Made by a program: the position numbers and the translations under genes. Of a stretch of 4,794 bases of DNA, positions 1 through 4,794 are shown piece after piece. Under the pieces are notes generated by a model that worked only from the letters and a program-made list of their open reading frames with translations, ran no database searches and had not been told where the DNA came from. Location: positions 1 through 4,794 of IMG/VR virus record IMGVR_UViG_2648501669_000016, one strand, 5' to 3'. The stretch's first letter is position 1; every line of letters begins with the position of its first letter. This DNA comes from a virus (lineage: Duplodnaviria; Heunggongvirae; Uroviricota; Caudoviricetes).

Positions 1-14
1 GTTTACCATGTTCA

Positions 15-24
15 CCCCCCCCCC
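15..24. repeat. Homopolymeric C10 (plus) / G10 (minus) tract immediately 3' of the ssb stop codon
   Basis: Ten consecutive C at 15..24. On the minus strand this reads TGA-GGGGGGGGGG-TGAAC-ATG, where the ATG at 9..7 could start a further downstream minus-strand gene (only 3 codons, M-V-N, are inside the window). Confidence 0.9.
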
Positions 25-459
25 TCAGAATGGCGCTTCATCGTCGAATGGTGGGCGCTGGTCGTATTCATCACGGGTTGACTGCTGCGCACGTCTCAGC
101 GCGTCCGTCGCCTGTCCCCGCTGGCTATTTTTGCCTCCCTGTCGCACCGTTCGCGCACTGATTACGCTGTCTGCGATAACCTGCCAGCCCTGCCGCGTTT
201 CGCCGTTCTGGCCTGTCCACTGGTTCACCTGCATGTTACCCGCCACGCTCACAAGGTCGCCTTTGTGGTGCTTTGCCAGTGCGTCGGCCTGTCTGCCAAA
301 GGCAGTTACGGCAAGCCATAGCGTCGCCTGCCCGTCGTCTGCGTTATGGCACGGCACTGATACCGCCATGCGTGCCAGCGTCATGCTTGTGCCTTTGCTG
401 GTCTGTTTTACCTGCGGCTCGTCCACCAGCCGCCCGTATGCTGAAATTTGTGCTGTCAT
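25..459 (-). CDS. ssb: Single-stranded DNA-binding protein (SSB family, OB fold plus acidic C-terminal tail)
   Basis: The translation matches the SSB pattern: GRL..EP near the N-terminus, W-x-x-V-x-x-FG...KG..V.V.G.....WT.Q.G..R in the OB-fold core (LWLAVTAFGRQADALAKHHKGDLVSVAGNMQVNQWTGQNGETRQGW), and a C-terminal tail PPFDDEAPF resembling the canonical SSB tip DDDIPF. The stop codon is TGA at 27..25. The start is placed at ATG 459..457, which overlaps the upstream ORF stop as TAATG; an in-frame GTG at 468 is an alternative start (the ORF track runs 25..468). Confidence 0.8.
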   Translation of the reverse strand: MTAQISAYGRLVDEPQVKQTSKGTSMTLARMAVSVPCHNADDGQATLWLAVTAFGRQADALAKHHKGDLVSVAGNMQVNQWTGQNGETRQGWQVIADSVISARTVRQGGKNSQRGQATDALRRAQQSTRDEYDQRPPFDDEAPF

Positions 460-668
460 TAAGCGCACTCCATTCTTGATAACGTGTCGTCAATATTCCC
501 AGCGGCTCGTTTCAGGTAGTCCATGCTGTCATTTAGTCGGGATAATTCGCCAGCCAGTAACAAGGCCGCCGCCTCCTGCGCGGTGAACCCCTGCGCTTCA
601 ATCTCTCTAACAACTTCGATCTGCTTTTTATGATGTTCGTTCATTTTTTCGCCCTTTAGCTGAATCAT
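459..668 (-). CDS. Small hypothetical protein (61-69 aa) between the iteron region and ssb; function unknown
   Basis: An ORF on the same strand as ssb, with its stop TAA (461..459) overlapping the ssb ATG (TAATG), which suggests translational coupling. There are two candidate starts: ATG at 668 preceded by a G7 run, and ATG at 644 preceded by AAGGGCG with about 6 nt spacing. The translation (MNEHHKKQIEVVREIEAQGFTAQEAAALLLAGELSRLNDSMDYLKRAAGNIDDTLSRMECA) has no motif I can assign. Confidence 0.5.
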   Translation of the reverse strand: MIQLKGEKMNEHHKKQIEVVREIEAQGFTAQEAAALLLAGELSRLNDSMDYLKRAAGNIDDTLSRMECA

Positions 669-669
669 A

Positions 670-694
670 CCCCCCCTGTGAATCTTTTTGGGGG
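670..694. promoter_or_regulatory. C7 / G5 inverted repeat (potential hairpin) directly upstream of the small ORF start
   Basis: The plus strand has cccccccc at 670..676, a 13-nt spacer (tgtgaatcttttt) and ggggg at 690..694. On the minus-strand mRNA this would pair the G-rich stretch immediately 5' of the ATG at 668 with an upstream C-run. No U-tract follows on either strand, so it is not a classical intrinsic terminator. Confidence 0.3.
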
Positions 695-700
695 TGTAAT

Positions 701-946
701 ATCCCTACCAATCCCTACCAATCGATAAAACCCATATGTGGCGCGGCTTTCAGGCTGGTAGGGCATTGTTTTTCTACCCCTACTTATCCCTACCTATCCC
801 TACCAAATACCAAAAAACGGTTATGCGTGGCTTCTTGTTTAGTAGGGATATGTAGGGATATGTAGGGATAAATATATATATCCCTACCAGTCTACAAGCC
901 CCGTCATTACTGGCCTTAAATGACTTTGTAGGGATAGGTAGGGATA
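701..946. repeat. Iteron array; putative origin of replication (ori / cis replication region) of the element
   Basis: Direct-orientation ATCCCTACC copies at 701-709, 711-719, 786-794, 796-804 and 880-888, with a partial copy at 777-783. Inverted-orientation GTAGGGAT copies at 842-849, 852-859, 862-869, 928-935 and 938-945, with a degenerate ggtagggca at 757-765. The tandem copies are spaced 10 bp apart. An AT-rich aatatatata sits at 871-880 between inverted and direct copies. The block is non-coding and lies immediately 3' of the primase-helicase stop at 960-962. Confidence 0.75.
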
Positions 947-959
947 AATCAGGGGTAAA

Positions 960-3416
960 CTATTCATCACCCCCTTCGGCGGTGCTGCTGCCATATGCTC
1001 GCGGTATAAACTCCTCCGCCAACTCATTGATCCCAACGTTCGTCTGCGCTCTGCCGTTAATGCTGCGTGTCAGGTAGTTAGCCCTGTATTCTCTGGCGGC
1101 TGATTTAATCGCCCGTGAGAACTTGTTGACGGAAAGCGGCTTCCCTAGCCCGTGATATTCCATAAAGGCCAAATAAAGGTGATACAGGTAAGTTCTCGGC
1201 TCTGGCTGTCCTGCCCACGTTCCTCCCCCCATCATCATTCCCTTCGGCTCGTTCATAAAATACAAGGCCGCGCACATGTCTATGACCGGATCTGTCCCGC
1301 GCTTAACGCCCAACGCCTCTGCGGAATCGCGCTGCTCGATTAAAAGCGCTTTAGCTTTGTTCTGGTCGGCAAACATTGCCAGCAAGTGACGAATAATTAC
1401 CGGCATTTCACGGCAGATCTTCGCTGTCAGGTCGGGGTCTTTCTCCGCTTCTGATACCGGATTATCGAACGGGAATATCACACGGCGGCGGGCAATGCCC
1501 CCGTTGCGCTCGGTAAAGGTCATTGGTTCGTTGTTGGTTGCGAGAACAACGGCATTTAGCACGGTGGTGAACTGCTTTTCATACTTACCATCAATCTCTA
1601 CTGGGTCGCCGCCTGTAATGGCCTTTATCCCTGCGCCTTCGCCAACATAGCGGGTCTGGTCTGGCATGATAATCAGGCTTTTTCCTACAAGCTGCGCCCG
1701 CCCTCTGGCTGTGTCTAGCGCTCCCATGCTGGCGCTGGCTGTGTTGTGCTCACCTGCCAGTGATACGGCTATGCTGCTGAATACGGATTTCCCACTGCCG
1801 CCCTCGCCAGTTATCTCAATGAATAGCTGCCAGTCGTGACGCTTCGCCAGCACCATAAACAAGGCTGCTTTGATACGCTCGGCCTTATGATGGTCGCCAG
1901 CCGTTGCATGATTCAGCCAACGGGTAAAATTGGGGGCGCTGGTGGTAATATTTTCCCCCGGCGCTGGCGGGGTGTAGGTGATCCCATTGTGGTTCATCAG
2001 CCAGTTACCCGGCGAATGGGCGGAAAACGTCTGCGTAGCGAGGTCATAAACGCCGTTATCAAAACCAATCAGATCCCCGCTCCGCTCACCAATTACCGGT
2101 ATTTGCAGCTTCATGGTTGCGACAACCGATTTAATCCCCTTTTCGGTGTAGTGGGCTTCGTGCTCGTCGAAAATTGCCACCATAACCCTTTCTAATTCGC
2201 TGTCTGGTAGCTTCACCCATACGCCAGATTCGTAGCAGTAAACAGTGCCACTATCTGGGTTAACCGCCAACATATCCCATCGAGATGAAAGCAACCGCGC
2301 TTTCTGGCTGGCTGCCATTTGTGCAATATCTCCGACATCGGCTTTACGGCGGGATTTACCGCCAGCAATGGCCTGTAGTTGTGGTTTCACGCATTCCCCC
2401 TGCGGCCGGTACATCGAATCGTTAATCGCAGCCGTAGCGACTTCCAGCCCGTGTTGCTGGTGGTAGTCGTTCCAGTCAGCTTTGCTGTCAGTCGGTGGCA
2501 GCGATACCCAGCCAGCCACGGATAAAGCTGCTTTCTCTGCGGCCTCCTTCCCGATGTTGGTGGCTCCGGTTTCGGAGGCTGCTGTAGGGTGGTCGTTATC
2601 TGCGGCGATAATAATTTGCGACTGCGGGTATTTCCGGCGCATTACTCCGGCAACGTGGATCAGGTTCCCGGCGTCAATTGCTGCCACTGCCAGCGCGTCC
2701 GGGCGCATCAGGTGAACAGACAGAGCGGTAGCCAGCCCCTCGGCAATTAAAACGCTCTGCGGCGATTCTGGCGCGTTTACGGCGTGATATGCCCCGCGCT
2801 TTGCTGAACCTGTCAGGAGTCGCTTCTCTCCCTGCGGTGTAATGGTTTGCGCTGCTGCCACTGCGCCGGATTCGTCCACCAGCTCCAGCAATAACGAACC
2901 ATCCGGCATAACCGGATAGTTAAACCCGGTCAGCCCTTTTGATTGCAGGTAATCAGATTCGCCCTGTGTGGCACTCTGGCGCATTCCGGCATACAGATGG
3001 GCAAACGTAGCCCTTCGCTGCTCTGCGTCCTCTGCTGCCTGTTTCTGGCGCTCCTGCTCACGCTGCTGGCGGTCGGCTTCCAGTTGCTCTCTTCTATGGC
3101 TCGCTGCCGCCGGGTCGGTTTGCGCTGCCCGGTAATCAATACCCAGCACGTCAGCGGCAAGCTGTGCCGCCTCCGTGGTGTCGCAGTTGTTAACCCGCTT
3201 GATTAAATCCAGCCCGTCACCAGCGCCACACTGGTTGCAGATAAAGCTACCGCGCCCGTTGTCGTCGAATCTGAAACGGTCTTTTCCACCACATGCAGGG
3301 CAGGGAGCATGACGGCGCGGAGAGTCAGGGACATTTATGTTCAGGCAGCCCAGCACATGAGGCCAGTTGTTTTCAGACGCACTGATAACCTGACGGATAA
3401 GATCAATGTTTCGCAT
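960..3416 (-). CDS. Primase-helicase fusion protein (zinc ribbon + TOPRIM-type primase + SF3 / P4-alpha-type helicase); replication initiator of a mobile element
   Basis: An 818-819 aa ORF. A CxxC-17-CxxC zinc ribbon (CPACGG...CNQCGAG) is encoded around 3228..3302. The primase region carries the conserved glutamate motif IAEGLATA and the acidic motif IIAADNDH. The helicase region has Walker A GEGGSGKS (nt 1785..1808), a Walker-B-like LIIMPD and an SF3 motif-C-like VLATNN. A charged E/Q/R-rich linker lies between the zinc ribbon and the primase domain. The start is placed at ATG 3416..3414; an in-frame GTG at 3419 is one codon upstream (the ORF track runs 960..3419). Confidence 0.9.
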   Translation of the reverse strand: MRNIDLIRQVISASENNWPHVLGCLNINVPDSPRRHAPCPACGGKDRFRFDDNGRGSFICNQCGAGDGLDLIKRVNNCDTTEAAQLAADVLGIDYRAAQTDPAAASHRREQLEADRQQREQERQKQAAEDAEQRRATFAHLYAGMRQSATQGESDYLQSKGLTGFNYPVMPDGSLLLELVDESGAVAAAQTITPQGEKRLLTGSAKRGAYHAVNAPESPQSVLIAEGLATALSVHLMRPDALAVAAIDAGNLIHVAGVMRRKYPQSQIIIAADNDHPTAASETGATNIGKEAAEKAALSVAGWVSLPPTDSKADWNDYHQQHGLEVATAAINDSMYRPQGECVKPQLQAIAGGKSRRKADVGDIAQMAASQKARLLSSRWDMLAVNPDSGTVYCYESGVWVKLPDSELERVMVAIFDEHEAHYTEKGIKSVVATMKLQIPVIGERSGDLIGFDNGVYDLATQTFSAHSPGNWLMNHNGITYTPPAPGENITTSAPNFTRWLNHATAGDHHKAERIKAALFMVLAKRHDWQLFIEITGEGGSGKSVFSSIAVSLAGEHNTASASMGALDTARGRAQLVGKSLIIMPDQTRYVGEGAGIKAITGGDPVEIDGKYEKQFTTVLNAVVLATNNEPMTFTERNGGIARRRVIFPFDNPVSEAEKDPDLTAKICREMPVIIRHLLAMFADQNKAKALLIEQRDSAEALGVKRGTDPVIDMCAALYFMNEPKGMMMGGGTWAGQPEPRTYLYHLYLAFMEYHGLGKPLSVNKFSRAIKSAAREYRANYLTRSINGRAQTNVGINELAEEFIPRAYGSSTAEGGDE

Positions 3417-3774
3417 CACCGTACCCCACGTGGTCTATAGCGTTTGCGATATGGCTAACCAGCATCTGCCACTTGGTTATTCCGTAATCAGTCAGCATGC
3501 CATCATTGTTTAGCCACATATCAAATTCAGCGGTTGTCGCAAGTTTCCACTTATCGCCGTGGACAGTCCTCATTGCTGGGTACATGAATGCGCAAATCAG
3601 ATCACAAACATCTGACGGCTTCAGAGATGTAGTAATGGTGCGTCCCTCTGGCGTCTGAATTGCCATTTTCTCTTCACCAGTAGAATGAAGGTTATGAATC
3701 CACACAGCACCAGCAATCTTTGCCACCTGCTCTCCGATTGCGGAGCTAAGCGCCATTTCTACATTTTCACGCAT
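3403..3774 (-). CDS. Hypothetical protein (123 aa), translationally coupled to the primase-helicase gene
   Basis: The ATG at 3774 is preceded by a strong SD (GGGAGG, 5 nt spacer). The stop at 3405..3403 overlaps the primase start by 14 nt. Same strand as its neighbours, no gaps. I recognise no motif. Confidence 0.6.
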   Translation of the reverse strand: MRENVEMALSSAIGEQVAKIAGAVWIHNLHSTGEEKMAIQTPEGRTITTSLKPSDVCDLICAFMYPAMRTVHGDKWKLATTAEFDMWLNNDGMLTDYGITKWQMLVSHIANAIDHVGYGDAKH

Positions 3775-4108
3775 GAGAACCTCCCGCTACAGTTGCGCCC
3801 ATGTCATTAACCATGCTTTGCCATATCTCACGCCCGACGTCAGTCAATCTGTCCTTAGTGACGCAACGATCAAGAAGCTCGATCCCCACGGTTTCCCACT
3901 GCGGGTAGAACACTTTCATGGCTGCCAGTGTGTAGCTATCGATCAGGCTGCGAACGCCTTTTACTCCATTGACGATTTCCACACGGACGGCCTCTCCGTC
4001 CGCATCAATCATGAAATAGTCCCCGCCGCTGGTGGAGGTAATGTGGTTATACAGTGCTGACGCATACTTATTTGCCAGCGCATTCAGTCGGAAATTTTTA
4101 GTAATCAT
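3767..4108 (-). CDS. Hypothetical protein (113 aa)
   Basis: The ATG at 4108 is preceded by GGATGGAGCC, containing a GGAG SD. Its last codons (..GGSHA, nt GGGAGGTTCTCATGCGTGA) encode the SD and start of the next gene, with an 8-nt overlap ATGCGTGA. I recognise no motif. Confidence 0.6.
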   Translation of the reverse strand: MITKNFRLNALANKYASALYNHITSTSGGDYFMIDADGEAVRVEIVNGVKGVRSLIDSYTLAAMKVFYPQWETVGIELLDRCVTKDRLTDVGREIWQSMVNDMGATVAGGSHA

Positions 4109-4118
4109 GGCTCCATCC

Positions 4119-4721
4119 TCAGTGCGTCACTGGTTCCGCTGGCATGCCGTTTTCATTCAGTTCAGCTATAAAGCTGTTGTGAAGTTCAGCAAGCGTTTCA
4201 CGACCAAATGGAGTCAGTGCTCCTTGTTCCACATCCATCATGGCTCTGTAGAAAATGATGGCGCGTTCTGTGCCAGACTCGATGCCAAAACGTTCTATCA
4301 TCGCGCCCTCAATGTTGTTTGCCATAGCGAGGCGCTCTGCTACTGGATACAGCGACATGGCGACGATGCCGTTGGAATAAACAGCCACTTCGGAAGGATT
4401 GCCAGTATCATCAATGATGCTGACAGTGCCGTTTTCCTTTCTCATTTCATTGATGAATGCTGTTGCTATCAGCCAGCGCCACATAATCACGTGATGCTGT
4501 GATGTGTAATCGAAATATCCCTGGTTGCCGCCACTGGCAATAGCGAGATGTATAAACATGCCTTCATCTGGTTTATCGTCATAATCCCCGGCATCCAGAC
4601 GATTTACGGCATCAATATATGAGACGGTCTCAACGCGTTCTGTCATGCCATCGTTGCTGCGGTACATGATGTTTACGCCGTCAGGCGTTGCTTCTGCATG
4701 GAAAGTTAAGAAATTATTCAT
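4119..4721 (-). CDS. Hypothetical protein (200 aa from ATG 4721; 211 aa if started at ATG 4754)
   Basis: A long minus-strand ORF. The ATG at 4721 has a GAGG SD 6 nt upstream and overlaps the stop of the upstream partial ORF (ATGAATAA), so I prefer it as the start. The ATG at 4754 is in frame but lacks an obvious SD. The stop TGA at 4121..4119 lies 10 nt before the next start. Function unknown. Confidence 0.6.
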   Translation of the reverse strand: MNNFLTFHAEATPDGVNIMYRSNDGMTERVETVSYIDAVNRLDAGDYDDKPDEGMFIHLAIASGGNQGYFDYTSQHHVIMWRWLIATAFINEMRKENGTVSIIDDTGNPSEVAVYSNGIVAMSLYPVAERLAMANNIEGAMIERFGIESGTERAIIFYRAMMDVEQGALTPFGRETLAELHNSFIAELNENGMPAEPVTH

Positions 4722-4794
4722 GTTTCGCCTCGCCTGAATGATTCTGTAACTCATATTTGCCCAACAATTCGTCCGCTTCCTGAATAGCTTCTGG
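4714..4794 (-). CDS. 3' end of an upstream gene running in from beyond the window edge (partial; C-terminus ..PEAIQEADELLGKYELQNHSGEAKHE)
   Basis: An open frame with no stop runs from the window edge at 4794 to TAA at 4716..4714, and that stop overlaps the downstream ATG at 4721. Only 26 codons are visible, so coding status rests on frame continuity and the coupling geometry. Confidence 0.35.
   Translation of the reverse strand, partial: PEAIQEADELLGKYELQNHSGEAKHE

What the first reader, a model, noticed from the sequence alone, without database searches (positions are those of the whole stretch)
15..24. G10/C10 homopolymer between ssb and the next downstream start codon
Homopolymer tracts of this length are prone to slipped-strand mispairing. 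Here the tract lies 5 nt upstream of a candidate ATG (9..7, minus strand) and directly after the ssb stop. Length variation would change SD-to-ATG spacing or read-through context, so it is a possible on/off or level switch for the downstream gene. It could equally be a sequencing-error-prone site to check before trusting the local annotation.
Basis: partly seen in the sequence, partly recalled or inferred. Interest (0 to 1): 0.35.

Follow-up and report, generated by a model that had tools for sequence, protein, structure and literature searches.

The report
Variable poly-G ribosome site before perC
The run of ten G's is the stretched ribosome-binding site of a PerC-family regulator gene that follows ssb in an E. 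coli phage-satellite island. Its length differs between isolates (6, 9 or 10), but ribosome docking should not change, so it looks like a slippage-prone spot rather than a proven switch.

Summary
C10 lies at 15..24 (G10 on the coding minus strand), directly after the ssb stop (27..25) and 5 nt before an ATG at 9..7. The window is a whole contig that ends 6 nt after that ATG. Sibling contigs show the ATG starts a 103-aa PerC-family regulator in an E. coli PICI-type satellite.

The tract length does vary. It is G10 in three assemblies, including the window, and G9 in four independent assemblies. It is G6 in 34 complete genomes and 3 metagenome contigs that I read or inferred. More distant relatives carry GGGAGATAAAC in the same 11-nt gap. 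G10 co-segregates with two SNPs, so it is inherited and not random read error.

The tract's 3' end plus UGA (GGGGGUGA) is a near-perfect extended Shine-Dalgarno sequence. The predicted duplex is -16.5 kcal/mol for every length from G6 to G12, and it always lies 5 nt from the AUG. Length therefore does not change SD-to-ATG spacing. It changes only the distance from the ssb stop to the perC start (11, 14 or 15 nt).

The best reading is an SD that became a homopolymer and then expanded by slippage, with probably near-neutral effect. A graded expression effect is untested. A second variable G tract (G7-G9) lies before orf69. Interest is low to moderate.

The parts
15..24 (-). G10 homopolymer (C10 on the + strand). 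It is the homopolymeric Shine-Dalgarno region of perC and is length-polymorphic (G6, G9 or G10) among related elements.
10..14 (-). Invariant TGAAC spacer between the G run and the perC ATG. Its UGA extends the SD pairing to GGGGGUGA.
1..9 (-). First three codons (ATG GTA AAC, MVN) of a 103-aa PerC-family transcriptional regulator. The gene is cut off by the contig end.
25..459 (-). ssb (144 aa) with TGA stop at 27..25. Its ATG at 459..457 overlaps the TAA of orf69.
459..668 (-). orf69, a 69-aa protein of unknown function and the first gene of the orf69-ssb-perC block.
670..676 (-). Second poly-G tract (G7 here), 1 nt before the orf69 ATG. It is G7, G8 or G9 in sibling contigs.
699..954 (.). 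Array of 10-bp-phased TAGGGATA/TATCCCTA iterons in both orientations around an AT-rich core. This is the presumed replication origin of the island.
960..3416 (-). P4-alpha-like primase-helicase with Zn_Ribbon_Prim, Toprim_3, D5_N, DUF5906 and Pox_D5 domains.

Best explanation
The G10 tract is the ribosome-binding site of a PerC-family regulator gene that lies immediately downstream of ssb. Both genes belong to the replication-module operon (orf69-ssb-perC) of an E. coli PICI-type phage satellite. The last five or six G's plus the following UGA form an extended Shine-Dalgarno sequence (GGGGGUGA, complementary to 16S 3'-UCACCUCC), 5 nt from the AUG.

The homopolymer arose in two steps. First, three A-to-G substitutions turned an ancestral GGGAGATAAAC into GGGGGGTGAAC (G6). 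G6 is the common and stable form. Second, in the lineage that carries the window's replication module, replication slippage lengthened the run to G9 and then G10.

The productive SD register is anchored at the 3' end of the run. Extra G's on the 5' side therefore leave SD strength and SD-to-AUG spacing unchanged. The G9/G10 polymorphism is most likely a near-neutral by-product of a run that has crossed the length at which slippage becomes frequent. It is probably not an evolved switch.

Shown here: gene identity, tract position, length polymorphism, co-segregation with SNPs, and the ancestral states. Inferred: the SD function (from predicted pairing and position) and near-neutrality (from geometry and predicted energies only).
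For: 1. Downstream gene. It is a 103-aa PerC family protein whose Pfam alignment starts at residue 1. The ATGGTAAACGA start is conserved while the upstream 11-15 nt diverge.

2. Series of states in the ssb-stop-to-ATG gap. These are GAGGGATACAC, GGGAGATAAAC and GGGAGATAAGC (11 nt, canonical SD), then G6+TGAAC (11 nt), G9+TGAAC (14 nt) and G10+TGAAC (15 nt).

3. Predicted duplex with the 16S tail GAUCACCUCCUUA. It is -8.3 to -8.5 kcal/mol for the E. coli ancestral forms and -9.3 for the Klebsiella junction. It is -16.5 for every G6-G12 form, with 10 consecutive pairs ending in GUGA, and the core always lies 5 nt from the AUG. Predicted local mRNA accessibility changes little: SD region unpaired 0.28 at G6 and 0.43 at G10, AUG region 0.52 and 0.56.

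4. Other genes of the island use the same style of SD, for example GGGGGTGAAAA-ATG before orf87, and GGGGG before DUF4222 and orf64.

5. G6 is invariant where seen. 34 complete E. coli genomes have alignment spans 3 nt shorter than the G9 query. G6 was read directly in L011 and in six long contigs. Three metagenome contigs have a match length that implies G6, and this was confirmed by reading them.

6. G9/G10 occur only in copies with the window's exact SSB, which is found on 9 contigs in the whole collection. Across about 2950 aligned nt these copies differ at 5 substitution columns. The only internal indels are in the two poly-G tracts. The G10 copies (L006, L007, L009) share two SNPs and have 0 substitutions among themselves.

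7. In E. coli, indel rates rise exponentially with homopolymer length (PMC8510543).

8. No sigma-70-like promoter, terminator or Rfam family lies at the tract.
Against: There are no expression data of any kind. Near-neutrality rests on predicted pairing energies and geometry.

Two hypervariable G tracts, both at the ribosome-binding position of genes in one operon, is a coincidence that selection for variability could also explain.

The distance from the ssb stop to the perC start does change (11, 14 or 15 nt). This could alter translational coupling or re-initiation.

The sample of the G9/G10 lineage is small (7 independent assemblies in 3 SNP clades). Some of these may be clonal isolates from one project.
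Confidence: 0.58

Rival explanations
1. The tract is a contingency (phase- or level-variable) locus. Slippage between G9, G10 and other lengths tunes PerC translation, for instance through coupling distance to the terminating ssb ribosome, competing SD registers or mRNA structure. This would give the satellite a heritable but reversible range of regulator levels.
For: The tract is in the hypermutable length range. It differs between copies separated by 4 or fewer substitutions in about 2950 nt. A second variable G tract (G7-G9) lies at the orf69 start in the same operon. There, the tract ends 1 nt from the ATG, so its length would alter usable SD spacing. The stop-to-start distance changes with length.
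Against: Predicted SD pairing and spacing for perC are identical from G6 to G12. Only two lengths are seen in the expanded lineage, and each is fixed within an SNP clade rather than scattered. The tract is intergenic, so no frameshift on/off is possible. No within-strain heterogeneity or expression data are available.
Confidence: 0.2
2. The G10 call (versus G9) is a sequencing or assembly artefact at a homopolymer, and the contig end beside it is a consequence of that artefact.
For: Long G runs are error-prone on short-read platforms (general knowledge). The window's contig stops 14 nt after the tract.
Against: G10 appears in three separate assemblies that share two SNPs absent from the G9 copies. 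G9 is reproduced in two independent assemblies of what appears to be one isolate, which are identical over 20,435 nt. Sibling contigs break at other places (98 nt and 628 nt past the ssb stop, or inside ssb). This fits breaks at sequence shared with other islands rather than at the tract.
Confidence: 0.08
3. At G10 the 15-nt gap puts perC in frame with ssb. UGA read-through would then make an SSB-GGGVN-PerC fusion protein, and tract length would gate that fusion.
For: Translation of window 60..1 on the minus strand gives ...DDEAPF*GGGVNMVN, in frame and with no further stop. G9 and G6 are out of frame.
Against: One length in three is in frame by chance. There is no read-through signal, no conservation of the in-frame state, and most copies are G6 or G9. 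The strong SD and ATG argue for independent initiation.
Confidence: 0.03
4. The tract acts at the level of transcription, either as a spacer of a phase-variable promoter for perC or as a transcriptional slippage site.
For: Homopolymer tracts in promoter spacers are a classical phase-variation mechanism (general knowledge).
Against: No sigma-70-like -35/-10 pair flanks the tract on the coding strand. The gap to ssb is only 11-15 nt and the genes are arranged as an operon (orf69 TAATG ssb, then perC). Slippage in an untranslated gap has no coding consequence.
Confidence: 0.03

Closest known systems
Shine-Dalgarno sites of distal genes in tightly packed operons (translational coupling)
   Same: It is a purine-rich sequence complementary to the 16S rRNA 3' tail. 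It lies 5 nt before the start codon and directly after the stop codon of the upstream gene. Relatives carry a canonical GGGAG or GAGGGA at the same place.
   Different: The SD has become a 6-10 nt homopolymer. It pairs through G-U wobbles plus an extension into GUGA, and its 5' part varies in length.
Simple-sequence contingency loci (poly-G/poly-C tracts of Neisseria, Haemophilus, Campylobacter and Bordetella; homopolymer phase variation of kpsC in ExPEC, PMC13410964)
   Same: It is a G/C homopolymer of 9-10 nt next to a gene start. Its length differs among near-identical strains, consistent with slipped-strand mispairing.
   Different: Classical tracts lie inside reading frames or in promoter spacers, where one unit changes expression. 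Here the tract is intergenic, and the predicted ribosome-docking geometry is independent of length. Reversible switching and a phenotype have not been shown.
Gram-negative phage-inducible chromosomal islands carrying PerC-like genes (EcCIMP1, EcCICFT073, EcCIEDL933; PMC11773190)
   Same: The gene set is integrase, AlpA, antirepressor, Ash/Icd-like protein, primase-helicase with an adjacent iteron origin, and a PerC-family gene. The island is about 13 kb and has no structural or lysis genes.
   Different: This island lies between yicC and dinD (or at another site in L006) and has an orf69-ssb pair before perC. Neither its helper phage nor the target of its PerC is known. No poly-G polymorphism came up in the one PICI paper I queried by keyword.

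Membership tests
Shine-Dalgarno ribosome-binding site | Complementarity to the 3' tail of 16S rRNA | tested here: met
   duplexfold with GAUCACCUCCUUA gives 10 consecutive pairs and -16.5 kcal/mol for G6-G12. The E. coli non-homopolymer forms give -8.3 to -8.5.
Shine-Dalgarno ribosome-binding site | Located a few nucleotides (about 5-9) upstream of a genuine start codon | tested here: met
   The core GGGGG ends 5 nt (TGAAC) before the ATG. That ATG is residue 1 of the PerC Pfam alignment and is conserved in all relatives.
Shine-Dalgarno ribosome-binding site | Required for translation initiation of the downstream gene | not testable with these tools
   This needs reporter fusions or toeprinting.
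Simple-sequence contingency (phase-variable) locus | Repeat tract long enough for frequent slipped-strand mispairing | tested here: met
   The tract is G10. Chance expectation is 0.01 per window. Indel rate is exponential in run length in E. coli (PMC8510543).
Simple-sequence contingency (phase-variable) locus | Tract length polymorphic among closely related strains | tested here: met
   G9 occurs in 5 contigs (4 independent assemblies) and G10 in 3 assemblies, all with 4 or fewer substitutions per 2950 nt. Relatives have G6.
Simple-sequence contingency (phase-variable) locus | A change of one repeat unit alters expression of the associated gene | tested here: inconclusive
   Predicted SD energy and spacing are unchanged from G6 to G12, and accessibility changes are small. 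Only the stop-to-start distance changes. There is no expression measurement.
Simple-sequence contingency (phase-variable) locus | High-frequency reversible switching within a clonal population | not testable with these tools
   This needs raw reads or fluctuation assays. Within each SNP clade the perC tract length is uniform.
Gram-negative PICI (phage-inducible chromosomal island) | Integrase, AlpA-type regulator and primase/replicase with adjacent origin, in a roughly 10-15 kb island without virion or lysis genes | tested here: met
   L003-L006 carry int, AlpA, AntA, DUF4222, Ash, primase-helicase, iterons, orf69, SSB, PerC and PRiA4_ORF3 within about 13.5 kb between yicC and yicG.
Gram-negative PICI (phage-inducible chromosomal island) | Excision, replication and packaging induced by a helper phage | not testable with these tools
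   No experimental data exist for this island. The analogy is to EcCIMP1 (PMC11773190).
PerC family (PF06069) | Significant match to the family profile over its full length | tested here: met
   E 2.1e-29, 102 bits against a cut-off of 22.6, residues 1-85 aligned to model positions 1-85 of 90. Also phrog_994 at E 1.6e-36.

The most novel reading that the evidence does not exclude
The satellite carries two hypermutable poly-G ribosome-binding sites in one operon, G7-G9 before orf69 and G6/G9/G10 before perC. Together they would act as a slippage-driven rheostat. This would create heritable, reversible subpopulations with different levels of the replication proteins and the PerC regulator. It would be a contingency mechanism acting at the translation-initiation step in a mismatch-repair-proficient enterobacterium and on a mobile element.
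Probability: 0.12. Interest if true: 0.55.

Novelty: new member of a known kind. Interest (0 to 1): 0.27.

Why it matters
For annotation, the result settles three things. A real gene (perC) starts at the contig edge. The tract is its ribosome-binding site. The tract length in any one assembly of this lineage should not be over-interpreted.

Biologically, it is a clean small example of how a homopolymer is born. Three point substitutions strengthened an SD and produced G6. That run then crossed into the slippage-prone range and grew to G9 and G10 in one lineage. In this lineage, both tracts change faster per site than the surrounding sequence accumulates substitutions.

If tract length did tune PerC or replication-gene translation, it would be an unusual translation-level contingency locus on an E. 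coli phage satellite. PerC-family proteins of such islands can affect virulence-island expression (EcCIMP1, PMC11773190). On present evidence, however, this is an ordinary slippage-prone SD.

Tried and rejected
- **Promoter-spacer or terminator role.** The consensus scan found no sigma-70-like promoter or terminator on the coding strand near the tract.
- **Known RNA element.** Rfam gave only sub-threshold chance hits.
- **Structured RNA around the orf69 tract.** The CCCCC-N13-GGGGG hairpin fold has z = -1.6, which is not significant.
- **Antisense ORF 8..586 (+), which contains the tract as Pro codons.** It has no Pfam or PHROG family. It is not kept open across ssb in relatives, and the ATG falls out of frame in G9 copies.
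- **Phage and viral collections.** There was no megablast hit in INPHARED phages and no pattern hit in IMG/VR.
- **Species-representative genomes.** The two-flank pattern found nothing. The looser pattern found only an unrelated chance match in a Dehalococcoidia MAG.
- **Longer PerC cluster representatives.** I inspected them for Gly-rich N-terminal extensions that would betray other tract lengths. They differ at the C-terminus or are chimeras and were uninformative.
- **att direct repeats.** None of 16 nt or more were found.

Full report
**1. What is in the window**

The 4794-nt window is a complete short contig (JRQF01000185.1, assembly GCA_000768125.1). All genes are on the minus strand. 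In order they are:
- three small ORFs (4754..4119, 4108..3767, 3774..3403);
- an 818-aa P4-alpha-like primase-helicase (3416..960; Zn_Ribbon_Prim, Toprim_3, D5_N, DUF5906, Pox_D5);
- an intergenic region packed with 10-bp-phased TAGGGATA iterons in both orientations (699..954);
- a 69-aa ORF (668..459);
- a 144-aa SSB (459..25; PF00436, E 3.7e-17).

The flagged tract is C10 at 15..24. On the coding strand the end of the contig reads CCA TTC TGA G10 TGAAC ATG GTA AAC. A 10-nt C or G run is expected 0.01 times per window.

**2. The downstream gene**

The exact SSB protein is encoded on only 9 contigs of the large assembly collection. Six of them carry a complete gene after the tract. There, the ATG at window 9..7 opens a 103-aa protein that matches Pfam PerC (PF06069) at E 2e-29 from its first residue. 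It also matches phrog_994 and several phage 'transcriptional activator' PHROGs.

The long contigs show the context: integrase, AlpA, AntA antirepressor, DUF4222, Ash/Icd-like protein, small ORFs, primase-helicase, origin iterons, orf69, SSB, PerC, PRiA4_ORF3. This spans about 13.5 kb and lies between yicC and dinD/yicG/ligB. In L006 it is at a different site. The chromosomal flank is 100% identical to E. coli chromosomes.

This gene set, with no virion or lysis genes, is that of Gram-negative phage-inducible chromosomal islands. PerC-family genes are described as common cargo in those islands (EcCIMP1, EcCICFT073, EcCIEDL933; PMC11773190). There was no near match in the phage collection. Partial matches to prophage-like regions occur in a few Klebsiella and Escherichia plasmid records.

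**3. Tract length across copies**

| Group | State of the ssb-perC gap |
|---|---|
| L003, L004, L005, L008, L010 (exact SSB) | G9 |
| L006, L007 (the window), L009 (exact SSB) | G10 |
| 34 complete E. coli genomes at 98.1% identity | span 3 nt shorter than the G9 query, implying G6 |
| L011 and six long contigs read directly | G6 + TGAAC |
| Three metagenome contigs | G6 (implied by match length, then read) |
| More distant E. coli copies | GGGAGATAAAC, GGGAGATAAGC or GAGGGATACAC in the same 11-nt gap |
| Klebsiella relative | GCTGGAGGACAAGCAGC before its perC |

L003 and L004 are identical over 20,435 nt. They are evidently one isolate assembled by two pipelines, and both give G9.

The PerC protein itself is identical in the G6, G9 and G10 copies. 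It is very widespread, indexed in 4218 blocks and on at least 1000 contigs.

By parsimony the history is as follows. A canonical SD (GGGAGATAAAC) changed by three A-to-G substitutions into GGGGGGTGAAC with the same gap length. It then expanded to G9 and G10 only in the lineage that carries the window's replication module.

**4. Is the G9/G10 difference real?**

Over about 2950 aligned nt (primase 3' part, origin, orf69, ssb), the eight contigs differ at five substitution columns. They fall into three clades: L003/L004/L010, L005/L008 and L006/L007/L009. The three G10 contigs form one clade. They share two private SNPs and have zero substitutions among themselves.

The only internal indels in that alignment are in the perC tract and in a second poly-G tract. 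Length therefore co-segregates with ancestry, which random homopolymer miscalls would not do.

Against five substitutions in about 2950 sites, the two tracts together (about 19 nt) have undergone at least three length changes. This fits the exponential dependence of indel rate on run length in E. coli (PMC8510543).

The sample is small, and some assemblies may be clonal. Within-culture heterogeneity cannot be assessed without reads.

**5. What the tract does**

No sigma-70-like promoter, intrinsic terminator or Rfam family lies at the tract. orf69 and ssb overlap (TAATG), and perC follows ssb by 11-15 nt, so this is an operon arrangement.

I folded the mRNA against the 16S rRNA 3' tail GAUCACCUCCUUA. 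The G-run forms give ten consecutive pairs, N-GGGGGG-UGA with UCACCUCCUU, including two G-U wobbles. This amounts to the extended SD GGAGGUGA with A replaced by G.

The predicted energy is -16.5 kcal/mol for every length from G6 to G12. The E. coli ancestral forms give -8.3 to -8.5. The register is anchored by the GUGA that follows the run. The SD core is therefore always the last five G's, 5 nt (UGAAC) from the AUG, which is within the usual E. coli range (established knowledge).

Predicted local structure changes only slightly with length. The unpaired probability of the SD region is 0.28 at G6 and 0.43 at G10. That of the AUG region is 0.52 and 0.56.

The same SD style recurs elsewhere in the island: GGGGGTGAAAA-ATG before orf87, and GGGGG before DUF4222 and orf64.

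My conclusion is that the tract is perC's ribosome-binding site. What does change is the distance from the ssb stop to the perC start (11, 14 or 15 nt). This could affect coupling modestly.

G10 happens to put perC in frame with ssb (DDEAPF*GGGVNMVN). One length in three would do so by chance, and nothing else supports read-through.

**6. The second tract**

One nucleotide upstream of the orf69 ATG (window 670..676) lies another G run. It is G7 in the window and L009. It is G8 in L005, L006, L008, L027 and L030. It is G9 in L003, L004, L010, L028 and L029. The Klebsiella relative has G7 there.

It varies even inside the G10 clade: L006 has G8, while L007 and L009 have G7. Because this run abuts the start codon, its length would alter the usable SD spacing if the annotated ATG is the true start. 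An alternative ATG eight codons downstream has its own AAGGG. The C5-N13-G(n) hairpin around it is not significant (z = -1.6).

Two unstable G tracts at ribosome-binding positions in one operon is the main observation that keeps a functional 'rheostat' reading alive.

**7. Verdict**

The gene start is confirmed and identified as perC. Length variation is confirmed.

The interpretation as an on/off or spacing switch is not supported. A graded effect is untested, and artefact is unlikely for the G9/G10 difference.

The best explanation (confidence about 0.58) is an SD that became homopolymeric by substitution and then expanded by slippage, with a near-neutral effect. The main rival (about 0.2) is a translation-level contingency locus.

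Novelty: this is a new example of a known kind of feature, in a known kind of element. Interest is low to moderate (0.27).

Noticed in passing
window 670..676 (minus strand), 1 nt upstream of the orf69 ATG at 668..666: A second poly-G tract that is also length-polymorphic. It is G7 in the window and L009, G8 in L005/L006/L008/L027/L030, and G9 in L003/L004/L010/L028/L029. A Klebsiella relative has G7. It varies even within the SNP-identical G10 clade.
   Followed up: partly
window 699..954: A dense array of TAGGGATA/TATCCCTA iterons at 10-bp phasing. There are at least a dozen copies in both orientations around an AT-rich ATATATATA core, between the primase gene and orf69. This is presumably the island's replication origin.
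   Followed up: partly
window 1..24 (contig end); L008/L010 ends; L027-L030 ends: The window's contig stops 14 nt past the tract. Sibling contigs stop 98 nt or 628 nt past the ssb stop, or inside ssb. This suggests that the ssb-perC region is shared with other islands in the same genomes and breaks short-read assemblies.
   Followed up: partly
window 1..60 (minus strand): With G10 the gap is 15 nt, so perC is in frame with ssb (..DDEAPF*GGGVNMVN). G9 and G6 copies are out of frame. This is probably coincidence.
   Followed up: partly
L003 10382 onward, compared with L011/L031/L033-L039: The island is a modular mosaic. An identical PerC protein and the last 54 nt or so of ssb are joined to at least three different upstream modules. 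These are the D5_N/DUF5906 primase with orf69 and a 144-aa SSB, the DUF927 primase with a 153-aa SSB, and a non-ssb gene followed by a remnant ssb 3' end in which TGA has become TGG (L013, L036).
   Followed up: partly
window 8..586 (+ strand): A 192-aa ORF antisense to the whole of ssb begins at ATG 8..10 and reads the C tract as Pro codons. It has no Pfam or PHROG family. It is not kept fully open in relatives and is out of frame in G9 copies, so it is probably spurious.
   Followed up: yes
L006 5238..5263 and other gene starts of the island: Several other genes of the island have G4-G5 Shine-Dalgarno runs. Examples are GGGGGTGAAAA-ATG before orf87, and GGGGG before DUF4222 and orf64. G-run SDs appear to be a habit of this element.
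   Followed up: no
L003 10783..10859 and 11568..11644: A 77-nt segment just downstream of perC is repeated 785 nt further on at 73% identity, with a shared core GACCCGCGCCAGTAG(C/T)GGGCTGGAAGCCA. Its function is unknown.
   Followed up: no
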